Shown one piece after another: positions 3,873 through 47,256 of a stretch of DNA of 52,197 nucleotides (position 1 is the stretch's first letter; every line of letters starts with the position of its first letter). Position numbers and translations under genes: made by a program. The DNA is from a virus (Duplodnaviria > Caudoviricetes). The notes beneath the pieces are model-generated. The model was given only the letters and a program-made list of their open reading frames with translations. It was not told the origin of the DNA and searched no databases. The stretch is from positions 1 to 52,197 of the IMG/VR virus record IMGVR_UViG_3300028025_003950; one strand, 5' to 3'.

Positions 3873-5954
3873 CTAGTCGTCGTAGAACTCTGTTGCGTAA
3901 TACATTTGGGCTGTCCACTGTATCTTGTGAGTAACTGATTCACCATCAATTCTGTATAGAGAGAGCTGTTTTTCGTTGTTACTACTTCTATCCCAGAAAA
4001 CGGCAGTTCCAGTATCGCTTCCACCACTAGAGGTTTCTATGTGGGTAACGTTGTCGTCGCCAGAATCATCTGCTATGTAGATAGTTCCAATGACGGTTCC
4101 GCCGTCACTTACATAAGCGTGGTATTCAATCTTTGCTCCACGAAAGTTTCCGTTTGAGAAATCTTCATTTGTTGGGTTTTCATTATCTGCATTCCACCAA
4201 ACAATTGGTGCACCACCATGTTCAATGGTCATACTATAGGTAGTGGCGTCAAGAAGGTCAAGAGTTAGGTCGCATCCAAATCTCCACTCGTAACCACCTT
4301 CAGTAGTTCCTATATAAGTAGGGTTTCTTAAAAACCTTACAGTGCCAGATTCATCAGTTATGGTGATTCGTCTTATGTAAGGGTTTTGTCCATTAAGTAC
4401 GTTGTGTTGTGCTGCGCCTACACTAAAATTAACAAGGGTGTCGTTTGAAGCCCCTCCCAGTGTGTAAACATTATCACCTAAACCTGTGGACGCTTCAGTT
4501 GTTATTTCTGTAAAGCCATGTGCTTGGTAAGTTCCATACCGTGCTTCGTTATTAGCGGTGTATGTTTTTACAGCGTCTGGGATATCGCCAATGGTTGCAA
4601 CTCGGTTAGTTGCATCTGGGCTGATTGTTGCATCGCCCCAGCCGATGTAGACATTTCCTGGACCGCTATCTCCAGCAATCAGGGTGATATCTCTTGCAGA
4701 ACGAAGTGATAGGTCGTCCTGTGGAGTGCCAATACGAGCAGTGCCTGTAGAAGTTCTTGTGAAGGTGATGAAGTCATCTCCACTGCCATCCTTGATGGCT
4801 GTTGGGACAACGAGGTTTGCGGAACCTCCTCCAATTATTGTGGAGTCTCCATTCTTAAGACCGCTGTACTCGTCAATCACATTATCGGAGGTAACGATAC
4901 TTAGATTAGACATGTAGGTTCTTACACTTGGATTGTTCTGGTCTGCTGCAAAACCAATTCGGTAAGGACCAGAAGGTAGAGCCTCGTTGAGGCTAACTGA
5001 CGCAATAACCTCGTTAGAGCCTTCTTCCGTGTAGGAGACAGTTACCTTGTCAGTAGATGCTGTTGGGTTGTATGTAAAGGTAACGGTATAGATTCCGTTG
5101 CCTGGTAAACCCCCTTCAGCAGTTGCTGAAGTGGTGCGACCACTAAGTTCTAGGTTGACGCAATCAAACTGAGCAGCGATTCTTGTTGTGTCTGGGCTAT
5201 AGTTCCACACTGGGGTGGTTCCTGCGTTATAGATAGCAATGCCCATGTCAGCGCACTCGGAGTTGATGTCGACATCAAAGCTTACTGTGACACCTACATT
5301 TTGTGGAATAATGGAGTTTGTAAAGATTGGATAGGAACTTCCGCCCTCTGCAGCTCCTGTAAACCAAATACCATCAGAGTCCCAACCAAAGTGTGTGTTT
5401 AGGTATTGAAGATGACCACGCTGCTCTTCCCATGTTAGGAAGGGCTCAAGTGGGTCAAGGCTTTGACCAGCACTAATTTGCATGCTTCCGTCTGGGAAGG
5501 TAATTCTTCCGTTTTTATCAAAGACCCAGTCTCTTCTGCTTCCATAGAGTGGACCGCTGCCAGTTCCGTCTCCTCTGTAACTATTAGTCTGAATAGTTAC
5601 CTCATCGGCCGCGTAGATACCAATCTCATCTCCGTAGGCACGAATCCAAACATCGTCGGCTGCTTCGATGTTGATGTCGCAGTCTGAAGTGACAGGGTCA
5701 TTGTCACGAACAGCTTGAATAGTCATGTCGTGGTCGGTGACAGTCATAACGCTGCCCTCTTCACTGTCATAAGCAAAGACAAAGTCAGCAATGCTTGCGC
5801 TCTGGAACTGCAACGCATTCCATCTGCTTGTGCCATCACCAATCTTGAACTTGCCTAGTGTGGTGTCAACACCAATCTCTGCTTGGGCAAGAACTGGATT
5901 TGCATACTCCCAGCCAGCTGTTGTGTCGTTTCTTAATTGAATTTGCTGAGCCAT
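3873..5954 (-). CDS. Tail fibre/receptor-binding protein with Mtd_N/hyaluronidase-like N-terminus
   Basis: IQLRNDT...W...NPVL...EIG.DT..GKFKIGDG...W..L N-terminal anchor domain. Confidence 0.8.
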   Translation of the reverse strand: MAQQIQLRNDTTAGWEYANPVLAQAEIGVDTTLGKFKIGDGTSRWNALQFQSASIADFVFAYDSEEGSVMTVTDHDMTIQAVRDNDPVTSDCDINIEAADDVWIRAYGDEIGIYAADEVTIQTNSYRGDGTGSGPLYGSRRDWVFDKNGRITFPDGSMQISAGQSLDPLEPFLTWEEQRGHLQYLNTHFGWDSDGIWFTGAAEGGSSYPIFTNSIIPQNVGVTVSFDVDINSECADMGIAIYNAGTTPVWNYSPDTTRIAAQFDCVNLELSGRTTSATAEGGLPGNGIYTVTFTYNPTASTDKVTVSYTEEGSNEVIASVSLNEALPSGPYRIGFAADQNNPSVRTYMSNLSIVTSDNVIDEYSGLKNGDSTIIGGGSANLVVPTAIKDGSGDDFITFTRTSTGTARIGTPQDDLSLRSARDITLIAGDSGPGNVYIGWGDATISPDATNRVATIGDIPDAVKTYTANNEARYGTYQAHGFTEITTEASTGLGDNVYTLGGASNDTLVNFSVGAAQHNVLNGQNPYIRRITITDESGTVRFLRNPTYIGTTEGGYEWRFGCDLTLDLLDATTYSMTIEHGGAPIVWWNADNENPTNEDFSNGNFRGAKIEYHAYVSDGGTVIGTIYIADDSGDDNVTHIETSSGGSDTGTAVFWDRSSNNEKQLSLYRIDGESVTHKIQWTAQMYYATEFYDD

Positions 5955-15895: not shown

Positions 15896-15917
15896 GTAAC
15901 GAGTCTAGTCTATTTAG

Positions 15918-15991
15918 AGCCCCGAATCGGATTCGAACCGATGACCCTCCGCTTACAAGGCGGATGCTCTGGCCAACTGAGCTATCAGGGC
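15918..15991 (-). tRNA. tRNA-Thr(UGU)
   Basis: Cloverleaf; anticodon arm TCCGC-CTTGTAA-GCGGA; GTTCGAAT T-loop. Confidence 0.92.
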
Positions 15992-16001
15992 GATGTTTTG
16001 A

Positions 16002-16568
16002 TTATAGACCACCTGGAACCCAGAGGTCGTCTCCATTCTCACGATTTTCATATCTAGCCAAAACAAATAGCAAATCACTAAGACGGTTCAGATACTTGGC
16101 AGTCAATGTATTGACACCTTCTCCAAACTGGTGAATTGCATGCCAAGTTGCTCTCTCTGCACGACGAACTATTGTTCTAGCCACATGGAGATGAGAAGAA
16201 GCTGGAGTCCCGCTAGGGAGAACAAAAGAACGTAAAGATTCAAGTCCAGAGTTGTAACTGTCTATTTCACTCTCAAGATAGTCAATCTGCTCTTGAGTTA
16301 CACGAAGTGGCTTTACTTTTGGTGACTCTACTACTGGAGTACATAAATCAGCTCCAACGTCAAACATATCGTTTTGAATCTTTACTAGCAAAGTCCTAAT
16401 GTTGTAGTTCTGCACATGCAACAGAGCAACACCAATGTATGAGTTAGCTTCATCAACAGTAGCGAACGCTTCAAGTCTTGGGTCATTCTTAGATGTGCGA
16501 GACATGTCACCAAGTGAAGTTGTTCCATCGTCACCAGTCTTGGTGTAAATGCGAGTTAAATTAACCAT
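16002..16568 (-). CDS. pduO: PduO-type ATP:cob(I)alamin adenosyltransferase
   Basis: RIYTKTGD.G.T, VDEANS, FVLP.G, H.ARTI.RRAER, YLNRLSD.LF..AR signatures; AAGGAG RBS. Confidence 0.93.
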   Translation of the reverse strand: MVNLTRIYTKTGDDGTTSLGDMSRTSKNDPRLEAFATVDEANSYIGVALLHVQNYNIRTLLVKIQNDMFDVGADLCTPVVESPKVKPLRVTQEQIDYLESEIDSYNSGLESLRSFVLPSGTPASSHLHVARTIVRRAERATWHAIHQFGEGVNTLTAKYLNRLSDLLFVLARYENRENGDDLWVPGGL

Positions 16569-16584
16569 TGTTCTCCTTAATGTG

Positions 16585-16655
16585 CTCCCTGCCAAGGACT
16601 CGAACCTCAATTGCTGGTGCCAGAAACCAGAGTCTTGCCATTAGACGAACAGGGA
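16585..16655 (-). tRNA. tRNA-Gln(CUG)
   Basis: Cloverleaf; CTGGT-TTCTGGC-ACCAG anticodon arm. Confidence 0.9.
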
Positions 16656-16664
16656 TAGTTTCCG

Positions 16665-16737
16665 TACCTCGGATGGGATTCGAACCCACGACCTTCTCCG
16701 TGAGAGGGAGATGTCCTAACCGCTAGACGACCGAGGC
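16665..16737 (-). tRNA. tRNA-Glu(CUC)
   Basis: Cloverleaf; TCTCC-CTCTCAC-GGAGA anticodon arm. Confidence 0.92.
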
Positions 16738-16902
16738 TTAGTGTCCTGTCATCATACGCCATACATGGATGTATAGCGAGTGAGCAGCGTAGAGAGCAGA
16801 GATAGTAAAGATTGTCTGAACAACTATTTGATGAACGCTAACCTTTTTAAAACCACGCTCTTCTTTTACTTTTACCTCTGAAGGGCGGGTTTTAGTAATC
16901 AT
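16738..16902 (-). CDS. 54-aa single-TM microprotein (below ORF-track cutoff)
   Basis: ATGA overlap with the upstream gene; MITKTRPSEVKVKEERGFKKVSVHQIVVQTIFTISALYAAHSLYIHVWRMMTGH. Confidence 0.6.
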   Translation of the reverse strand: MITKTRPSEVKVKEERGFKKVSVHQIVVQTIFTISALYAAHSLYIHVWRMMTGH

Positions 16903-17428: not shown

Positions 17429-17836
17429 CTACACAGCCAATAGACCTGCTGGGTCGATTCCTCCGCCCCTAGTCCATGTTGGCTTTGCTTGACACTCTAG
17501 GTGGAGATGAGGACCAGTTACGTTTCCCTCTGCTCCTGAGTCAAGAACATGCTGTCCTTTGACTACCTTGTCACCTTTTTTAACATGAAGCTTTTGTCCA
17601 TGTGCATACATTGTGAAGAGAGTTTGCTCTCCAACTTTATGCCTGATGACTAACGAGTGCTTTCCGTAAGCACCACCCCAGATACCTGTACCAACGACAG
17701 TGCCGTCTGCACAAGCAAGGACTGGTGTTCCTTTGGGGCAAGCGAAATCCACGCCTTCGTGTCTTCCTGTTGACCACATCTTTCCTGGCTTAGCGAAGGG
17801 TGTAGTTATCTTGCCACCAGCAATTGGAAGTGCCAT
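17429..17836 (-). CDS. M23 family metallopeptidase (stand-alone)
   Basis: HEGVD (HxxxD), YAH, GPHLHLE (HxH). Confidence 0.9.
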   Translation of the reverse strand: MALPIAGGKITTPFAKPGKMWSTGRHEGVDFACPKGTPVLACADGTVVGTGIWGGAYGKHSLVIRHKVGEQTLFTMYAHGQKLHVKKGDKVVKGQHVLDSGAEGNVTGPHLHLECQAKPTWTRGGGIDPAGLLAV

Positions 17837-17927
17837 ATGCTCACTCACAATTTCTGTGCTTGTCTTACTAGAGTGCTTTACTCTATATAAAGATTTTAAC
17901 CTCTGCGTTAGTGTGTGAGATTGAAAG

Positions 17928-18007
17928 TGCGGGTGGTTGGAATCGAACCAACATCCTCCCAGCCCATCCTATAAAGCTAGGTACACCTCCGAATGTGCGA
18001 CACCCGC
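17928..18007 (-). ncRNA. tRNA-like RNA with a 24-nt anticodon arm (no assignable anticodon)
   Basis: Perfect acceptor stem GCGGGTG/CACCCGC, D arm, T arm GTTGG-TTCGATT-CCAAC; anticodon loop 14 nt. Confidence 0.75.
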
Positions 18008-18008
18008 T

Positions 18009-18084
18009 TGGCTGGGATGGCAGGGCTCGAACCTGCGACCTAGGAGTTAACAGCTCCCCGCTCTGCCAGCTGAGCTACATCCCA
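18009..18084 (-). tRNA. tRNA-Asn(GUU), CCA encoded
   Basis: Cloverleaf; GGGAG-CTGTTAA-CTCCT anticodon arm. Confidence 0.93.
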
Positions 18085-18092
18085 ATGGCTAT

Positions 18093-18317
18093 TTATTTTT
18101 CTATTGCGTCAATCTCTGCAGGACGATAGCCACTCCAAATTGCATTATCAGTTACAACAATTGGAGCTGTCTTCAAACCTTGAGAAAGAAACATCTCAAG
18201 CTTGTCTGGATTTTCTGTCAAGTCAACAACACTATATTCAATCTCTCTGCGGTCTAGATGCTTCTTAGTTGCGTTGCACTGAACACAGTTTGGTGTGGTG
18301 TAAACGGTTACGCTCAT
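18093..18317 (-). CDS. nrdH: NrdH-like glutaredoxin
   Basis: VTVYT.P.CVQC.AT, AP.V, WSG.RP motifs. Confidence 0.9.
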   Translation of the reverse strand: MSVTVYTTPNCVQCNATKKHLDRREIEYSVVDLTENPDKLEMFLSQGLKTAPIVVTDNAIWSGYRPAEIDAIEK

Positions 18318-18694
18318 GCGTGGACAATCCTTTCAATTCCTGCCGAGTTAATTAGTTTAGAACATCCAGGACAAGGCTTACCTGTAATGTAAATAGTAGA
18401 GCCTGATAAGTCATTCCAGCTTGCTCTTAGAAGTGCGTTTGATTCTGCATGAGTTGCCCAGCAAAGGTCGTAATTTCCTTCTGCATGTTTAGCAGTTGAG
18501 TCAAGTGCACGAGGACATTGCCCTGTTGCGCCACAAGAACGGTCATCGCCTGACGGTGTTCCGTTATATCCAGTAGAAACAATCTTGTGGTCTTTAACAA
18601 TAATTGCTCCGTGTTGTGCACGAACACAATCTCCACGAGCAGACACTGCTTTAGCGATTGCTAGGTAGTAGTCGTCCCAACTAGGTCTAAGCAC
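18314..18694 (-). CDS. dCMP deaminase
   Basis: RPSWD.Y, TGYNG, HAE.NA, PC..C Zn motifs. Confidence 0.9.
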   Translation of the reverse strand: MLRPSWDDYYLAIAKAVSARGDCVRAQHGAIIVKDHKIVSTGYNGTPSGDDRSCGATGQCPRALDSTAKHAEGNYDLCWATHAESNALLRASWNDLSGSTIYITGKPCPGCSKLINSAGIERIVHA

Positions 18695-19019
18695 TAGTCA
18701 GCCGTCCAGTAATCATCTTCATCACTAGCAGTTGCATACTTTTGCTTCCACTTTTCAATGTCAGATAAAAGCGCTGTGGCTTTTGCATGTACTTCCTTTA
18801 TAGCCTCTTCAGCAAGGAGAATACGAAACTCGATATTAAGAAACTCGTGGTCTAGGTCATCTGACATCTTCGTCCTCTGTCTTTATGGTGTGTACAAGTA
18901 TCACATAATTTGTTGATTTTAAAAACAATAGCCGTGCAACAAACTTAAGAACTTTATGCTTCCACTCTGGGTAGTCATCAATAACCCCAAGAGTTATGGG
19001 GCTAGGAGGCTTTTTAGCT

Positions 19020-19477: not shown

Positions 19478-20140
19478 CTATTTTGTTTTCTTTGCCTTAG
19501 GGGCAGCTCCAAAGCCAGGAACTGGGTTTACCAATTTCTTCTTAGACCCTGGTTTCTTTTTTGCAGAAAGACCTGACACATCTAGACTTGGTGGGGCGGT
19601 GGAGACTTGGTCCTCTGGTGAAAGTTCTTTAGCAGAAGCCTTTAACTTTTCGAAAGCCATTACAGACTCAACGAAAGCAATCGGACTAACAAAACCTTTT
19701 CCGTTTAGGTCCCAACGGTGACTCTTGCCTTCGACAATTTCAAAATGCAAATGTCTTCCAGCTGAAGCTCCAGTGTTTCCCATAATTCCAAGAATTGTTC
19801 CAGCTTCAACCTTCTGACCAGTCTTAACTTTGAGTGAGCCTTCAGCCATGTGACCAGAGCGAGTGGTGTACCACTTGCCATCAATCTTGCTGCGAATGTC
19901 AACGTAGTATCCAATGCCGCCTAGAGAGCCGTCAGCGTTTTTTAACTTTGACGGACCTGCATACACCACTGTTCCATCGTGCCATGCTTCAATGTAAATT
20001 TTTGGATTAGAGCCCCATATGTCATCGCCATTATGATGCTTCTTTGTTTTTTCAATGGGATGTATCCTCCATCCGAAGGGACTTGTAATTTTCCAAGCCT
20101 TACCTTTTTTCCCGTCTATAGGGTATTGCGCTTTTGCCAT
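19478..20140 (-). CDS. M23 peptidase (endolysin-like) with Lys/Pro-rich tail
   Basis: HNGDD, HLHFE motifs; paralog of the next gene. Confidence 0.9.
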   Translation of the reverse strand: MAKAQYPIDGKKGKAWKITSPFGWRIHPIEKTKKHHNGDDIWGSNPKIYIEAWHDGTVVYAGPSKLKNADGSLGGIGYYVDIRSKIDGKWYTTRSGHMAEGSLKVKTGQKVEAGTILGIMGNTGASAGRHLHFEIVEGKSHRWDLNGKGFVSPIAFVESVMAFEKLKASAKELSPEDQVSTAPPSLDVSGLSAKKKPGSKKKLVNPVPGFGAAPKAKKTK

Positions 20141-20279
20141 GATGTCCTTTCTAGACATAGATACTTCAATTGTAGAAAGATGGCTAAACAGAAACATTAG
20201 TGCAGATGTTCGAAGAATAGAAAAACTCCCGTACCTCTGCCGAAGTACAGGAGCTTCCTATGTAAAAAGTGTTTAGAAA

Positions 20280-21002
20280 CTACTTCAGTTTTATAACCTG
20301 ACCAACGTTGATTTTGTTTGCATCTTTGATTCCGTTTAGCTTTACCAAAGCTGCAACAGTTGTTCCGTTAGCCTTAGCGATTTTTGTTAGAGTGTCGCCA
20401 GATACGACTGTGTAGGTTTTTGCTCCTGAGGTAGCTGGTTTTGCAACTACTGGTTTAGGACCGTGAACGGGTGCTGGAAGAACTGGGTCGCTCTCCTTTG
20501 CCTCCACACTTGCAGTTCCCGCTGCATTCTCCACCGCAATTACAGCATTGAAGAATGTGAACGGTTCGATGTAGCCCTTGCCTGTGTTGTTCCATTCGTG
20601 GTTCTTTCCCTCTTTCAACTCCCAGTGGAGATGCTTGCCTGTAGACATTCCAGTTGAAGCCATCTTGCCAAGAATGGTTCCTGCTTCAATCTTCTGTCCC
20701 TCTTTTACTTTTAGCCCGTCAGCCATGTGTGCGTACAAAGTTGTGTACCACTTGCCGTTAATGTTGTGGAGTAGCTTTACAAAGTTACCAAAGCCACCAC
20801 CTGCAGCAGTTGACTTTCTTGCTTCGAGTACTTTGCCATCATATGGAGCTTCAATCCAACATGGCTCCTGTCCAGACCATACGTCCGAGCCATTGTGATG
20901 CTTCTTCTCTTTTGTCACTGGGTGAATACGATTACCCATCGGGGATGTGATTTTAAAATCTTTCCCTAGTTTGCCGTCAATAGGCAGTTGTGCTTTAGCC
21001 AA
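20280..21002 (-). CDS. M23 peptidase with C-terminal LysM
   Basis: HNGSD, YAHM, HLHWE; YTVVSGDTL..IA..LN.I....I.VGQ.I.L LysM. Confidence 0.92.
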   Translation of the reverse strand: MAKAQLPIDGKLGKDFKITSPMGNRIHPVTKEKKHHNGSDVWSGQEPCWIEAPYDGKVLEARKSTAAGGGFGNFVKLLHNINGKWYTTLYAHMADGLKVKEGQKIEAGTILGKMASTGMSTGKHLHWELKEGKNHEWNNTGKGYIEPFTFFNAVIAVENAAGTASVEAKESDPVLPAPVHGPKPVVAKPATSGAKTYTVVSGDTLTKIAKANGTTVAALVKLNGIKDANKINVGQVIKLK

Positions 21003-21609: not shown

Positions 21610-21801
21610 TTACTTCTTCTTTGGTGCTGCTGGTTTCTTTGCAGCTGGCTTTTTAGCTGGTGCTTTTTTCTTCGCGACTGGACGTTCACTTGGTGTGCCT
21701 TCTTGCACGATTCCGTCTTTGTCACGGTCAATAGCATTAGCTTTGTAGCCTTCAGATACTCCTAGGAAAACTCCTAGTCGCTTCAATGCGTTCTTCATCA
21801 T
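21610..21801 (-). CDS. Small protein with DxDxDG loop and PAAKK tail
   Basis: DRDKDGIVQEGTP.ERP plus histone-H1-like tail. Confidence 0.6.
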   Translation of the reverse strand: MMKNALKRLGVFLGVSEGYKANAIDRDKDGIVQEGTPSERPVAKKKAPAKKPAAKKPAAPKKK

Positions 21802-22625
21802 TTACCTCCTAACTTAACAATAGCAGCCCAAGTCTTTGGACCAACAGTTCCGTTGGCTTCAAGACCGTTTGCTTTTTGAAATGCAATGACTGCCTTTTCT
21901 GTACCTGGACCAAATTCTCCATCTGCCTTAAGTTTTAATGCAGTCTGCACTCTTTTAACTTTAGGACCTTTTGCACCTTTCTTAAATGGCGTAAAGGCTG
22001 CTGGAGCTTTAGCTGCAGGTGTAGAAGTTGTTGCTTTCTTAGGAGCTGCAGCTTTTGCTGCTGGTGCATCAGATGAACCAACCTTTGAAAGTAGTGGAAG
22101 ACTTTCTTCGCCAGCATAGACTGGTCGACCCCAGCCTACGATTGCGTTCATAAGTTTTAACTTATTATCTTTAACATATGCGCGAGTCTTCTCGACACAC
22201 ATTCCACCATTGCGCTGGTCTCCCTTTGCAGTTCCTGAAGTGTTGCCTTCAATAACTTGGATGGTTCCATTACCGTTGTTCTTGATACAGATACCAACGT
22301 GTGAAATTCGGTTGACGCCATCATCTGGGAAGTCGAAATAAATCCAGTCTCCAGGAGTTGGGTCATCATTACGGGCATCTGCCCAGCGGTCGTTCTTCTT
22401 AAAGAAGTCAGCTGCTGCAACTGTTGATGCAGACTTTGGATACTTCTTTGCGTCTAGTCCTGATGTGAATGCACACCAAGAAACAAATGATTGGCACCAT
22501 GGCTGAAAATTAACGCCAGTCCACTTGCCATACTTTGTCTCGTTATCTTTCGGTCCTTCGATTGTTCCTATCTCTGCTTTGGCAACTTCGATAATTCGAG
22601 CTGCCGTACCTTTAGCTTCAGGCAC
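21798..22625 (-). CDS. Endolysin: CHAP amidase plus peptidoglycan-binding domain
   Basis: PWC..FVSW, HVGI, IEGNT; DG.FGP.T..AV..FQ..NGL...G.VGP.TW. Confidence 0.9.
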   Translation of the reverse strand: MPEAKGTAARIIEVAKAEIGTIEGPKDNETKYGKWTGVNFQPWCQSFVSWCAFTSGLDAKKYPKSASTVAAADFFKKNDRWADARNDDPTPGDWIYFDFPDDGVNRISHVGICIKNNGNGTIQVIEGNTSGTAKGDQRNGGMCVEKTRAYVKDNKLKLMNAIVGWGRPVYAGEESLPLLSKVGSSDAPAAKAAAPKKATTSTPAAKAPAAFTPFKKGAKGPKVKRVQTALKLKADGEFGPGTEKAVIAFQKANGLEANGTVGPKTWAAIVKLGGK

Positions 22626-46482: not shown

Positions 46483-46656
46483 GTCACAAAAAAGACCCCC
46501 TTGACCTACGCTTAGAAGGTTCGGGGGGCTTTGTGACCCTCTGGTAAGGTTTATACATGAGCGACGTATTAGACAAATTGACATTCGGGCTTTCGGTAGC
46601 CCCAAAGGTTGCGTAGTACTGCGACCTGTCCCTGTCCCCTAAAGAAGGAGTACCGA

Positions 46657-47256
46657 ATGAAGTCATCTCGTTTTCACCCAGAAGCAATCGTGTTTGGAAT
46701 CTCTATTGCTCTACTAGCAACAACAGTAACAATCGCTGCGGCTCAGGCAACAGCAGTAACAGAAGCCAACCAGGCTGCTGCGGTAATCCAGGAAGAGAAA
46801 AGACTCGAAGCCCTGGCTGCATTAGCCGAGGTAAAAAAAGTTAGCCGCCTTGAAGAGCTCGCTGCAACAAGAGAACAACTTGACCCTCTGGAGCTGAAGG
46901 AACTACTCAGCCTCGTCGGGTTTGAAGGCAAAGCACTGAAGGAAGCATGGGCTATCGTGATGAAGGAATCCACTGGACGTCCTAAGTCTCACAATGGCAA
47001 CTCCAACACAGGCGACAACTCATACGGTCTATTCCAAATCAACATGATTGGTGGGCTTGGAGAAGACCGCCGTGAGAAGTTTGATTTGAAGCAGAACTCT
47101 GACCTCTGGAACCCAGTCCTTAATGCACAAATTGCTTATCACATGAGCAATGGCGGAGAAGATTGGGGCTCATGGGGTATAGGTCCTAACGCTTACAATG
47201 GTGGTAAGGCTGGCTCGTATTACAAGTGGCTTGACCAATACCCAGAAGGAAAGTAG
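46657..47256 (+). CDS. Secreted lytic transglycosylase (SLT/Rpf-like)
   Basis: TM/signal; AWAI...ES.G, SYGLFQIN, NP..NA..A, W..W. Confidence 0.85.
   Translation: MKSSRFHPEAIVFGISIALLATTVTIAAAQATAVTEANQAAAVIQEEKRLEALAALAEVKKVSRLEELAATREQLDPLELKELLSLVGFEGKALKEAWAIVMKESTGRPKSHNGNSNTGDNSYGLFQINMIGGLGEDRREKFDLKQNSDLWNPVLNAQIAYHMSNGGEDWGSWGIGPNAYNGGKAGSYYKWLDQYPEGK

What the first reader, a model, noticed from the sequence alone, without database searches (positions are those of the whole stretch)
17928..18007. tRNA-shaped RNA with intact body but a 14-nt anticodon loop
Acceptor (GCGGGTG/CACCCGC-A), D and T arms are well paired, but the anticodon arm is CCTAG-CTTTATAGGATGGG-CTGGG, 7 nt longer than normal and extendable by G-U pairs. 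Read canonically, positions 34-36 are UUA (ochre-reading) followed by a 7-nt insert at about the classic intron site. The acceptor stem is Gly-like but has A73. It lies 1 nt from tRNA-Asn, so it is probably co-processed. Preserved pairing argues against random decay. Possible roles: decoy for anticodon nucleases, synthetases or RelA; non-ribosomal aminoacyl donor; or a suppressor after processing.
Basis: partly seen in the sequence, partly recalled or inferred. Interest (0 to 1): 0.72.

Follow-up and report, generated by a model that had tools for sequence, protein, structure and literature searches.

The report
Anticodon-less glycine-type tRNA look-alike, actinophage
An uncultured freshwater or subsurface phage of actinobacteria carries a well-folded tRNA-shaped gene whose codon-reading loop is replaced by a larger loop with a conserved sequence, so it probably acts as a tRNA mimic, not a translator, and its role is unknown.

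Summary
On the minus strand, 18007..17928 is an 80-nt cloverleaf (Rfam tRNA 45.3 bits, cut-off 29). It has a 5-bp anticodon stem and a 14-nt loop, and lies 1 nt after tRNA-Asn.

It is neither an assembly error nor a private insertion:
- One contig from another study is identical.
- Two related forms occur: a 78-nt form (L002/L003) and a divergent 76-nt form (L024).
- All three keep an enlarged loop with the shared string UAU(A)GGAUGG.

Across the three forms, 62 of 63 stem cells pair. Five pairs changed on both sides. U8:A14 became A8:U14. The acceptor stem is unchanged, so the fold is under selection.

No reading gives the same anticodon in all three. ARAGORN calls them Ile, Tyr and His, so the ochre (UUA) reading is not conserved. 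TAA is the commonest stop.

The acceptor stem is glycine-type: 109 of 110 cellular tRNAs sharing it are tRNA-Gly. However C35/C36, usually U73, and the G51:C63 pair are missing. In two relatives a normal tRNA-Gly(UCC) occupies the same slot.

Best reading: a conserved, non-decoding tRNA mimic, possibly a decoy for a host factor that handles tRNA-Gly. Expression and function are untested. It is a new variant of a known kind.

The parts
17928..18007 (-). tRNA-shaped RNA gene, 80 nt, no encoded CCA, discriminator A at 17928
   Evidence: Rfam RF00005 45.3 bits. ARAGORN calls it tRNA-Ile(tat). The cloverleaf is the MFE fold. Model R1 scores it 105.9 bits.
17958..17981 (-). Remodelled anticodon arm: 5-bp stem CCUAG/CUGGG around a 14-nt loop. 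It can extend by C-G and two U.G pairs to an 8-bp helix with the 8-nt loop UAUAGGAU.
   Evidence: The stem covaries in L002 and L024.
17964..17973 (-). Conserved loop string UAUAGGAUGG (UAU-GGAUGG in L024)
   Evidence: Identical in L002/L003. Nine letters are shared with the divergent L024 copy, although the stems around it changed.
18001..18007 (-). Acceptor stem, 5' strand GCGGGUG. It pairs with 17929-17935 (CACCCGC).
   Evidence: All 7 pairs are invariant in the three forms. Glycine-type: 109 of 110 cellular tRNAs with this 3' strand and T-loop are tRNA-Gly.
17983..17998 (-). D arm (GCAC / AUUCGGAG / GUGU) with G18 G19
   Evidence: The 12:23 pair changes from A-U to G-C in L024. The D arm resembles no particular isotype.
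17936..17952 (-). T arm GUUGG / UUCGAUU / CCAAC
   Evidence: Pairs 50:64 and 51:63 change from U-A to A-U in L024. Pair 51:63 is G-C in 106 of 109 cellular tRNA-Gly with the same acceptor.
18009..18084 (-). tRNA-Asn(GUU) with encoded CCA, 1 nt upstream of the odd RNA
   Evidence: It has diverged from the L003 copy with compensatory changes.
17429..17848 (-). M23 peptidase gene downstream. The space just upstream of it is a slot where tRNA genes turn over among relatives.
   Evidence: Pfam PF01551, E 2.8e-23. Slot occupants in relatives.
18093..18317 (-). Glutaredoxin gene upstream, same strand. A glutaredoxin-like ORF also lies upstream of the RNA in L003 and L024 (reading of the sequence; only the window's copy was scored against Pfam).
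   Evidence: Pfam PF00462, E 9.1e-11. Sequence of L002 (= L003 contig) and L024 upstream regions.
15917..16737 (-). Rest of the tRNA cluster: Thr(UGU) 15917-15991, Gln(CUG) 16584-16655, Glu(CUC) 16664-16737

Best explanation
This is a conserved tRNA-shaped RNA that does not read codons. It is transcribed with the neighbouring minus-strand genes and tRNAs. It would be cut out by RNase P and RNase Z and given CCA by the host, as for the other CCA-less tRNAs of the cluster. It folds into a normal L-shape. Its acceptor stem is that of bacterial tRNA-Gly(UCC/CCC). Its anticodon arm has been rebuilt into a longer helix with an enlarged loop showing UAU(A)GGAUGG. I propose that it works as a mimic: a decoy or competitive ligand for a host factor that recognises tRNA-Gly by its acceptor end and its far tip. 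Candidates are a tRNA-directed defence toxin or nuclease, or the glycyl-tRNA synthetase.

Shown: the fold, its conservation, the Gly-type acceptor stem, the lack of a conserved anticodon, and the loss of glycine identity marks.

Inferred: processing, expression, the absence of decoding, and above all the decoy role.
For: Real, and present in three forms across independent assemblies.

Selection on the fold:
- 62 of 63 stem cells are standard pairs.
- 9 of 21 pairs vary, 5 of them by changes on both sides.
- U8:A14 is swapped to A8:U14 in L024.
- G18 G19 and the T-loop are kept.

Local conservation against L003: 75 of 80 positions are identical, and all 5 differences lie in the anticodon stem or variable loop. 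The spacer downstream is only about two-thirds identical by my reading of the alignment. The adjacent tRNA-Asn changed at about 13 positions with compensation.

Sequence-level constraint at both ends of the L. The acceptor stem is 7 of 7 invariant and the loop string is kept, while the D, anticodon and T stems all changed.

No conserved anticodon.

Gly-type acceptor: 109 of 110.

Departures from working tRNA-Gly:
- No CC anywhere in the loop.
- A73 in two forms, where 108 of 109 tRNA-Gly have U73.
- 51:63 is U-A or A-U, where 106 of 109 have G-C.
- 49:65 is G-C, where 105 of 109 have G.U.
- The GlyRS determinants G1-C72, C2-G71 (which that paper prints as C2-G70), U73, C35 and C36 are as quoted in PMC7826273 (passages).

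Same slot as a normal tRNA-Gly(UCC) in relatives L004 and L025, at a like distance from the conserved spacer. G001 (90% complete) has the odd RNA and no tRNA-Gly. G002 has tRNA-Gly and no odd RNA.
Against: - No expression, processing or binding data exist, and no RNA run was available.
- Only three distinct sequences are known, two of them near-identical, so covariation rests largely on one divergent copy.
- No host factor or phage partner was identified.
- A decoy needs no conserved loop string unless the target reads that end, and I cannot name what reads UAU(A)GGAUGG.
- The discriminator differs between forms (A versus U), which is odd for a mimic of one tRNA.
- Whole-body ancestry from tRNA-Gly is unresolved. 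Model R1 ranks actinobacterial tRNA-Thr(UGU) highest among cellular tRNAs (58-62 bits), and the D arm matches no isotype.
- Most relatives lack the RNA (11 of 14 slots, counting the window), so it is dispensable.
Confidence: 0.4

Rival explanations
1. It is a working decoder. Either the extra 5-7 nt are removed by an unknown processing step, or the enlarged loop still presents a triplet. Candidates are UAU or GAU (isoleucine), or UUA (ochre suppressor).
For: - ARAGORN calls the window copy Ile(tat).
- The loop holds both UAU and GAU in all three forms.
- In L002 the first seven loop letters UUUAUAG look like a proper loop, with U33, UAU and A37.
- Phage tRNAs with unexplained conserved inserts are on record in Lak megaphages (PMC6784885, passages).
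Against: - The triplet at the canonical place differs in each form: UUA, UAU, AUG.
- The insert is too short for a bulge-helix-bulge or a group I intron, and Rfam finds nothing but tRNA here.
- No RtcB or RNA ligase (PF09414) was found in G000 or G001.
- The acceptor stem is Gly-type, not Ile-type.
- AUA is only 14% of Ile codons. All three stops are used, with TAA commonest (19 of 39), and ORFs are intact under code 11.
Confidence: 0.1
2. It is a glycine carrier for a non-ribosomal reaction such as cell-wall cross-bridge synthesis. It would be charged through its acceptor stem and kept off the ribosome by its loop and weak EF-Tu-binding T stem, like the staphylococcal non-proteogenic tRNA-Gly.
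For: - The acceptor stem is Gly-type, and L024 has U73.
- Pair 51:63 is U-A or A-U where tRNA-Gly has G-C. That pair is reported to set EF-Tu affinity (Sanderson and Uhlenbeck 2007; title seen only in a reference list).
- The gene sits among peptidoglycan hydrolases: three M23 peptidases and a CHAP protein.
- Precedent: PMC7826273 (abstract and passages).
Against: - C35 and C36, which PMC7826273 lists among the necessary glycylation determinants, are absent.
- Two of the three forms have A73.
- The staphylococcal tRNAs keep UCC and a normal loop.
- No FemAB (PF02388) or Acetyltransf_6 (PF13480) gene was found in G000, G001 or G002.
- The neighbouring hydrolases are also next to ordinary tRNAs in relatives.
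Confidence: 0.12
3. It is a processing or stability element. The tRNA shape serves only as an RNase P / RNase Z cutting signal that separates the upstream nucleotide-metabolism message from the M23 peptidase message.
For: - It is always on the same strand, between coding genes and directly upstream of the M23 gene.
- In 10 of 14 slots, counting the window, some tRNA occupies this place.
- The body needed by RNase P and RNase Z (acceptor and T arms) is the best-kept part.
Against: - This does not explain a conserved loop string or a maintained long anticodon helix.
- Four relatives (L026, L028, L032, L033) have no tRNA there.
- The window copy has tRNA-Asn 1 nt upstream, which would already give the cut.
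Confidence: 0.13
4. It is a dead tRNA gene, a decaying tRNA-Gly with no function, kept only by linkage and recent common descent.
For: - The family is small and patchy: 3 of 14 slots.
- No copies were found in 155 cellular genomes searched with R1.
- Pattern scans of IMG/VR gave only the one relative, L002.
- The window and L003 are close relatives: their M23 proteins are 98% identical.
Against: - Compensatory changes in the D, anticodon and T stems and at 8:14 arose after the shared loop string did.
- The RNA is an island of identity between a diverged tRNA-Asn and a diverged spacer.
- The Rfam score remains 44-47 bits in all three forms.
Confidence: 0.12

Closest known systems
Bacterial and phage elongator tRNA-Gly(UCC/CCC)
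   Same: The acceptor stem GCGGGUG/CACCCGC and the T-loop GGUUCGAUUCC match: 109 of 110 cellular tRNAs carrying them are tRNA-Gly. It occupies the same genomic slot as the normal tRNA-Gly(UCC) of relatives L004 and L025.
   Different: - The loop is 12-14 nt with no NCC anticodon.
- A73 in two of three forms.
- 51:63 is U-A or A-U, not G-C, and 49:65 is G-C, not G.U.
- Positions 8-9 are UC or AG, not UA.
- The D arm is idiosyncratic.
'Enigmatic' conserved introns in tRNA genes of Lak megaphages (Devoto et al. 2019, PMC6784885; passages read)
   Same: These are phage tRNA genes interrupted by extra sequence that is conserved among relatives, with no known removal machinery.
   Different: Those inserts were called with eukaryote settings as introns in otherwise assignable tRNAs, and one is large enough to hold a possible tRNA. 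Here the excess is only 5-7 nt and no consistent anticodon remains. Their Supplementary Table 6, with sizes and sequences, could not be seen.
tRNAs with 8-9-nt anticodon loops (frameshift suppressors; yeast mitochondrial tRNA-Thr with an 8-nt loop, PMC3113583, abstract in the listing)
   Same: The anticodon loop is enlarged in an otherwise normal cloverleaf.
   Different: Those loops gain 1-2 nt and still decode. This one has 12-14 nt. If the U.G pairs form it has 8 nt, but then lacks U33 in the window form.
Non-proteogenic tRNA-Gly of Staphylococcus aureus (PMC7826273; abstract and passages)
   Same: A tRNA-Gly relative with altered D and T arms that is diverted from the ribosome.
   Different: The staphylococcal species keep the UCC anticodon, U73 and full GlyRS determinants, and have a known Fem transferase partner. 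None of these is met here.
Phage tRNAs proposed to evade host tRNA-targeting nucleases through anticodon-loop changes (PMC10264068; abstract in the listing; a term search of its text found none of my six terms)
   Same: Phages of actinobacteria alter the anticodon loops of their own tRNAs in a conflict over tRNA.
   Different: Those tRNAs keep 7-nt loops and decode. This RNA has lost the decoding loop altogether.

Membership tests
Canonical tRNA (Rfam RF00005) | Four-arm cloverleaf scoring above the gathering cut-off | tested here: met
   45.3 bits against a cut-off of 29, full model 1-71. Homologues score 44.5 and 46.5 bits.
Canonical tRNA (Rfam RF00005) | Elbow elements: G18 G19, T-loop UUCGAUU, an 8:14 pair | tested here: met
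   Present in all three forms. U8:A14 is swapped to A8:U14 in L024.
Canonical tRNA (Rfam RF00005) | 7-nt anticodon loop with U33, a triplet at 34-36 and a purine at 37 | tested here: not met
   The loop is 14, 12 and 12 nt in the three forms. The window form has U37 under canonical numbering. The triplet is not conserved.
tRNA-Gly | Acceptor pairs G1:C72, C2:G71, G3:C70 | tested here: met
   The stem type is Gly in 109 of 110 cellular tRNAs.
tRNA-Gly | Discriminator U73 | tested here: not met
   A73 in the window and L002, U73 only in L024. 108 of 109 reference tRNA-Gly have U73.
tRNA-Gly | C35 and C36 in the anticodon | tested here: not met
   No CC occurs in any of the three loops. The determinants are as listed in PMC7826273.
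Ochre suppressor tRNA | UUA at 34-36, kept among homologues | tested here: not met
   UUA is obtained only in the window copy. L002 gives UAU and L024 gives AUG.
Ochre suppressor tRNA | Genes that need TAA read-through or a reassigned stop | tested here: not met
   39 long ORFs are intact under code 11. Their stops are TAA 19, TAG 13 and TGA 7.
Intron-containing tRNA (archaeal bulge-helix-bulge or bacterial group I) | A bulge-helix-bulge fold or a group I ribozyme in the insert | tested here: not met
   The excess is 5-7 nt, too short for either (sequence). Rfam at E up to 1 finds only tRNA on the RNA's own (minus) strand; the two other matches lie on the + strand and far below their gathering scores.
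Intron-containing tRNA (archaeal bulge-helix-bulge or bacterial group I) | A ligase to rejoin the halves | tested here: not met
   RtcB (PF01139) and RNA_ligase (PF09414) were found in 0 of 2 records, G000 and G001. A host enzyme cannot be excluded.
tRNA-Ile(UAU), the ARAGORN call | Same anticodon call in homologues, and an Ile-type acceptor | tested here: not met
   Calls are Ile(tat), Tyr(ata) and His(atg) for the three forms. The acceptor is Gly-type.
Expanded-loop frameshift suppressor tRNA | 8-9-nt loop with U33 and a 4-base anticodon | tested here: not met
   The loop is 12-14 nt. The 8-nt alternative (UAUAGGAU) has A at the 33-equivalent place.
Non-proteogenic tRNA-Gly (Fem-type cell-wall donor) | Chargeable by GlyRS, weak EF-Tu binding, a Fem transferase partner | tested here: inconclusive
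   Charging and EF-Tu binding cannot be tested here. Pair 51:63 departs from tRNA-Gly. No FemAB or Acetyltransf_6 was found in the 3 phage records. Host genes are unknown.
tRNA decoy or mimic against host tRNA-directed toxins | Binds or absorbs a defined host factor, and improves phage growth when that factor is present | not testable with these tools
   The phage and host are uncultured. No partner was identified.

The most novel reading that the evidence does not exclude
The RNA is an 'anti-tRNA'. It has a tRNA-Gly body whose far loop shows a codon-like GGA instead of an anticodon. The string UAGGAUG or AUGGAUG matches 5 of 7 letters of the exact complement of the tRNA-Gly(UCC) loop CUUCCAA. 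It may have arisen by flipping the loop between the two stem arms. It would pair loop-to-loop with tRNA-Gly(UCC), or it would trap an actinobacterial defence enzyme that recognises tRNA-Gly at both ends of the L. If so, it represents a wider, undescribed class of anticodon-less tRNA mimics in phage tRNA operons. Other windows of this scan have noted similar objects; those notes are unchecked.
Probability: 0.1. Interest if true: 0.85.

Novelty: new variant of a known kind. Interest (0 to 1): 0.6.

Why it matters
Phage tRNA genes are usually explained by codon supply or, more recently, by escape from host tRNA-cutting defences. This RNA keeps everything that makes a tRNA fold and be processed, under visible selection, but has given up the part that reads codons. 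In its place it has a conserved loop sequence, and the acceptor stem is frozen. That is what one expects of an RNA kept to be bound rather than to translate.

If it is shown to be stable and to bind a host factor, it would be a concrete case of tRNA mimicry used by a DNA phage of actinobacteria. It would also give a handle (acceptor stem plus loop string) for finding the host target.

There is a practical warning as well. tRNA finders gave it three different amino-acid names in three relatives, so such genes are being mis-annotated as ordinary tRNAs.

Tried and rejected
Exact-pattern scans for more members:
- Anticodon arm: 0 hits in IMG/VR.
- T arm plus acceptor: only L002.
- Loop plus T-loop: 11 stretches, of which 10 are not tRNA-like.
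- D arm plus T-loop: IMG/VR gave only L002, and metagenome contigs gave 0.
- GGAUGG plus T-loop plus acceptor: IMG/VR gave only L002, and genome contigs gave 0.
- UAUGGAUGG or UAUAGGAUGG plus T-loop: 7 and 2 stretches. Apart from L002, none is a family member; the best R1 score is 26.4 bits, and ARAGORN finds no tRNA at these places.

Model R1:
- Over 31 sources (the window and 30 loci) it found only the three known copies.
- Over 4 plus 151 genomes of the class of G004 it found no member. The best hits were normal-length tRNA-Thr(UGU) at 58-62 bits.
- The nearest named phage, DSL-LC01, has three ordinary tRNAs and no such RNA.

Antisense target of the loop in the window: 3 matches at up to 2 mismatches, including the site itself, against 3.33 expected by chance. 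Rejected.

Loop pairing with the neighbouring tRNA-Asn 3' strand (CCAUCC): present in the window but absent in L002. Rejected.

RNA evidence: no RNA holder was listed. The single read-laying run used DNA contigs only, and its table of differences was cut, so the X3 variant's letters inside the RNA were not seen.

Phage-encoded partners not found:
- RtcB, RNA_ligase and the CCA-adding enzyme family in G000 and G001 (L024's record was not held and not searched).
- FemAB and Acetyltransf_6 in G000, G001 and G002.

Isotype of the D arm: no isotype stands out.

Literature: seven full-text searches gave no description of a phage tRNA-like RNA with a 12-14-nt anticodon loop or this loop string. The review PMC7609411 (passages) lists 6-bp anticodon stems but no such loops. 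PMC1869040 is not held. Supplements were closed and not consulted.

Full report
**1. What is there**

The window is an IMG/VR virus record of 52,197 bases that CheckV rates 39% complete. The feature lies on the minus strand, 18007 down to 17928. Rfam's tRNA model matches it end to end at 45.3 bits (cut-off 29), with 10 letters where the model has 3 in the anticodon loop.
- acceptor GCGGGUG/CACCCGC with A73
- D stem GCAC/GUGU around AUUCGGAG
- T stem GUUGG/CCAAC around UUCGAUU
- anticodon stem CCUAG/CUGGG around the 14-nt loop CUUUAUAGGAUGGG

The minimum-energy fold is the cloverleaf. The anticodon helix is lengthened by one C-G and two U.G pairs to 8 bp with an 8-nt loop (z -2.45).

tRNA-Asn(GUU), with its CCA encoded, ends 1 nt upstream. 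Three more tRNAs, Glu(CUC), Gln(CUG) and Thr(UGU), lie downstream on the same strand. The odd RNA has no encoded CCA, like Glu, Gln and Thr (sequence).

**2. Not an error and not private**

- A 1069-nt contig from a different study is identical over 17733-18700 (X2).
- A freshwater contig spans the RNA without gaps, with 31 differences over 664 nt (X3). The table was cut, so I could not see which fall inside the RNA.
- A contig of a further study has 1-nt deletions at 17965 and 17980 (X5).
- That shorter form is also in IMG/VR contig L002/L003 (118 kb, 90% complete). It is 78 nt, with stem CUCAG/CUGGG around UUUAUAGGAUGG.
- A third, divergent form of 76 nt lies upstream of the same M23 peptidase gene in metagenome contig L024 (Rfam 46.5 bits). 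Its stem is ACUGG/UCAGA around CUAUGGAUGGGG.

**3. Selection on the fold**

A script laid the three forms arm by arm:
- Of 21 cloverleaf pairs in 3 sequences, 62 of 63 cells are standard pairs.
- Nine pairs vary, and five changed on both sides: 12:23 A-U to G-C, two anticodon-stem pairs, and 50:64 and 51:63 U-A to A-U.
- The single broken cell is A.A at the base of L024's anticodon stem.
- The tertiary pair U8:A14 is A8:U14 in L024.
- The acceptor stem is unchanged at all 7 pairs.
- The loop keeps UAU(A)GGAUGG although the helix around it changed.

Against L003 the RNA is 75 of 80 identical, with all five differences in the anticodon stem or variable loop. By my reading of the alignment, the spacer after it is only about two-thirds identical. 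The neighbouring tRNA-Asn has about 13 changes, which are compensated.

Because the stems diverged after the shared loop string arose, the fold has been kept by selection without a normal anticodon loop. The caveat is that there are only three forms, two of them close.

**4. Not a decoder by any simple reading**

- Canonical numbering gives UUA, UAU and AUG in the three forms.
- ARAGORN names them Ile(tat), Tyr(ata) and His(atg).
- The excess over a 7-nt loop is 7, 5 and 5 nt. That is too short for a bulge-helix-bulge or a group I intron, and on the RNA's own strand Rfam finds only tRNA here; its other two matches lie on the + strand, far below their cut-offs.
- The window record and the 90%-complete relative encode no RtcB, no RNA ligase of family PF09414 and no CCA-adding enzyme.
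- The 39 long ORFs are intact under code 11 and end in TAA 19, TAG 13 and TGA 7. AUA is 14% of Ile codons.
- Nothing calls for an ochre suppressor.

**5. What kind of tRNA body**

ARAGORN called 110 tRNAs carrying the pattern: 71 Gly(UCC), 38 Gly(CCC) and 1 Leu.

The RNA departs from those 109 tRNA-Gly at several places:

| Position | 109 reference tRNA-Gly | This RNA |
|---|---|---|
| 73 | U in 108 | A in the window and L002, U in L024 |
| 51:63 | G-C in 106, never U-A or A-U | U-A or A-U |
| 49:65 | G.U in 105 | G-C |
| 8-9 | UA in 104 | UC or AG |

It also has no C35 C36. PMC7826273 lists these two, with G1-C72, C2-G71 (which it prints as C2-G70) and U73, as the glycylation determinants (passages).

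Ancestry of the whole body is not settled. The D arm resembles no isotype. Model R1 scores actinobacterial tRNA-Thr(UGU) highest among cellular tRNAs, at 58-62 bits.

**6. Context**

The best match of the class II ribonucleotide reductase among named phages is Actinomycetia phage DSL-LC01 (77.7% amino-acid identity, 129 kb). Its authors consider it an actinobacteriophage (PMC10611076, passages). It has only ordinary tRNAs.

The window carries:
- a B12-dependent reductase, a cobalamin adenosyltransferase, a dCMP deaminase and a glutaredoxin
- three M23 peptidases, CHAP, NlpC/P60 and SLT hydrolases
- a GNAT acetyltransferase

The place just upstream of the M23 gene at 17429-17848 is a slot where tRNA genes turn over. 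Among the window and 13 related loci it holds:
- the odd RNA in 3 (window, L003, L024)
- tRNA-Gln plus a normal tRNA-Gly(UCC) in 2 (L004, L025)
- tRNA-Gln alone in 2
- tRNA-Thr in 3
- nothing in 4

In L024 and L004 the odd RNA and the tRNA-Gly end at like distances from the same conserved spacer. G001 has the odd RNA and no tRNA-Gly. G002 has tRNA-Gly and no odd RNA.

**7. How it most likely works**

Shown: a conserved L-shaped RNA with a frozen Gly-type acceptor stem, a conserved far-loop string, no conserved anticodon, and loss of the marks needed for glycylation and for tight EF-Tu binding.

Inferred: it is co-transcribed with its neighbours, cut out by RNase P and RNase Z, and given CCA by the host.

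My best reading (0.4) is a tRNA mimic kept to be bound, not to translate. It would be a decoy or competitor for a host factor that recognises tRNA-Gly at both ends of the L. Layered odds:
- that it is a selected, non-decoding tRNA-like RNA: about 0.75
- that the role is specifically a decoy: about 0.3

Rivals: a decoder after unknown processing (0.1), a non-ribosomal glycine carrier (0.12), a mere processing signal (0.13), and a dead gene (0.12).

**8. Comparison and novelty**

The RNA fails the membership tests for canonical decoding tRNA, tRNA-Gly, ochre suppressor, intron-bearing tRNA and expanded-loop frameshift suppressor. It works most like a tRNA mimic. The nearest published parallels are:
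- the unexplained conserved inserts in Lak megaphage tRNAs (PMC6784885, passages)
- the diverted tRNA-Gly species of staphylococci (PMC7826273)

Seven literature searches found no description of this kind of loop. Unchecked notes from other windows of this scan list further anticodon-less tRNA look-alikes in phages, which hints at a wider class.

I rate it a new variant of a known kind, interest 0.6.

Noticed in passing
window 16585-16780 (minus strand) versus L003: tRNA-Glu(CUC), tRNA-Gln(CUG) and their immediate flanks are 100% identical between the window and the relative. The genes on both sides differ at many synonymous sites, and tRNA-Asn and tRNA-Thr have diverged with compensation. This is either recent exchange of the block or very strong constraint.
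   Followed up: no
upstream of the M23 peptidase gene: window 17849-18092; L003, L004, L005, L024-L033: The slot upstream of this gene holds a different tRNA set in nearly every relative: Asn plus the odd RNA, the odd RNA alone, Gln plus Gly, Gln, Thr, Glu plus Thr, or none. This is rapid turnover of tRNA genes at one site. L011, a more distant relative, has tRNA-Met there.
   Followed up: partly
L038 5510-5581 (-) and L041 6913-6984 (+): An unrelated phage carries a 72-nt tRNA-like element with a GCGGCGA acceptor stem, a normal T arm, a 3-bp D stem, and an anticodon arm replaced by a bulged hairpin with a 4-nt loop. It also contains UAUGGAUGG. R1 scores it only 26.4 bits and ARAGORN does not call it. 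The shared string is probably chance, but it is another anticodon-less tRNA look-alike.
   Followed up: partly
L035 6418-6463 (-) and L040 824-869 (+); L036 1922-1975 (-): These are short T-arm-bearing elements of 46-54 nt. They seem to have an acceptor stem and T arm but lack one or two of the other arms, like mini tRNA-like helices. They were seen only as pattern hits.
   Followed up: no
window 3873-5954 (-): A 693-aa protein begins with the N-terminal domain of the major tropism determinant Mtd (PF18454, E 4.3e-13). This could mark a diversity-generating retroelement target. No reverse transcriptase or repeat pair was looked for.
   Followed up: no
window 17429-17848, 19478-20197, 20280-21002, 21798-22625, 204-998, 46609-47256: There is an unusually large set of cell-wall hydrolases in 52 kb: three M23 peptidases (one with LysM), CHAP with a PG-binding domain, NlpC/P60 and an SLT-like lysozyme.
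   Followed up: no
window 16002-16610 (-) and 17911-18129 (+): The mechanical ORF of the cobalamin adenosyltransferase starts at a TTG inside tRNA-Gln (16584-16655), so the true start must lie downstream. The 72-aa ORF on the plus strand lies across both tRNA genes and is surely spurious.
   Followed up: no
window 17855-18253, run X2 record 1: In the same sample set, a much more abundant relative (depth 61 against 9.5) has this stretch replaced by 465 other letters. The replaced stretch covers the odd RNA, tRNA-Asn and most of the glutaredoxin gene. So forms with and without the RNA coexist.
   Followed up: no
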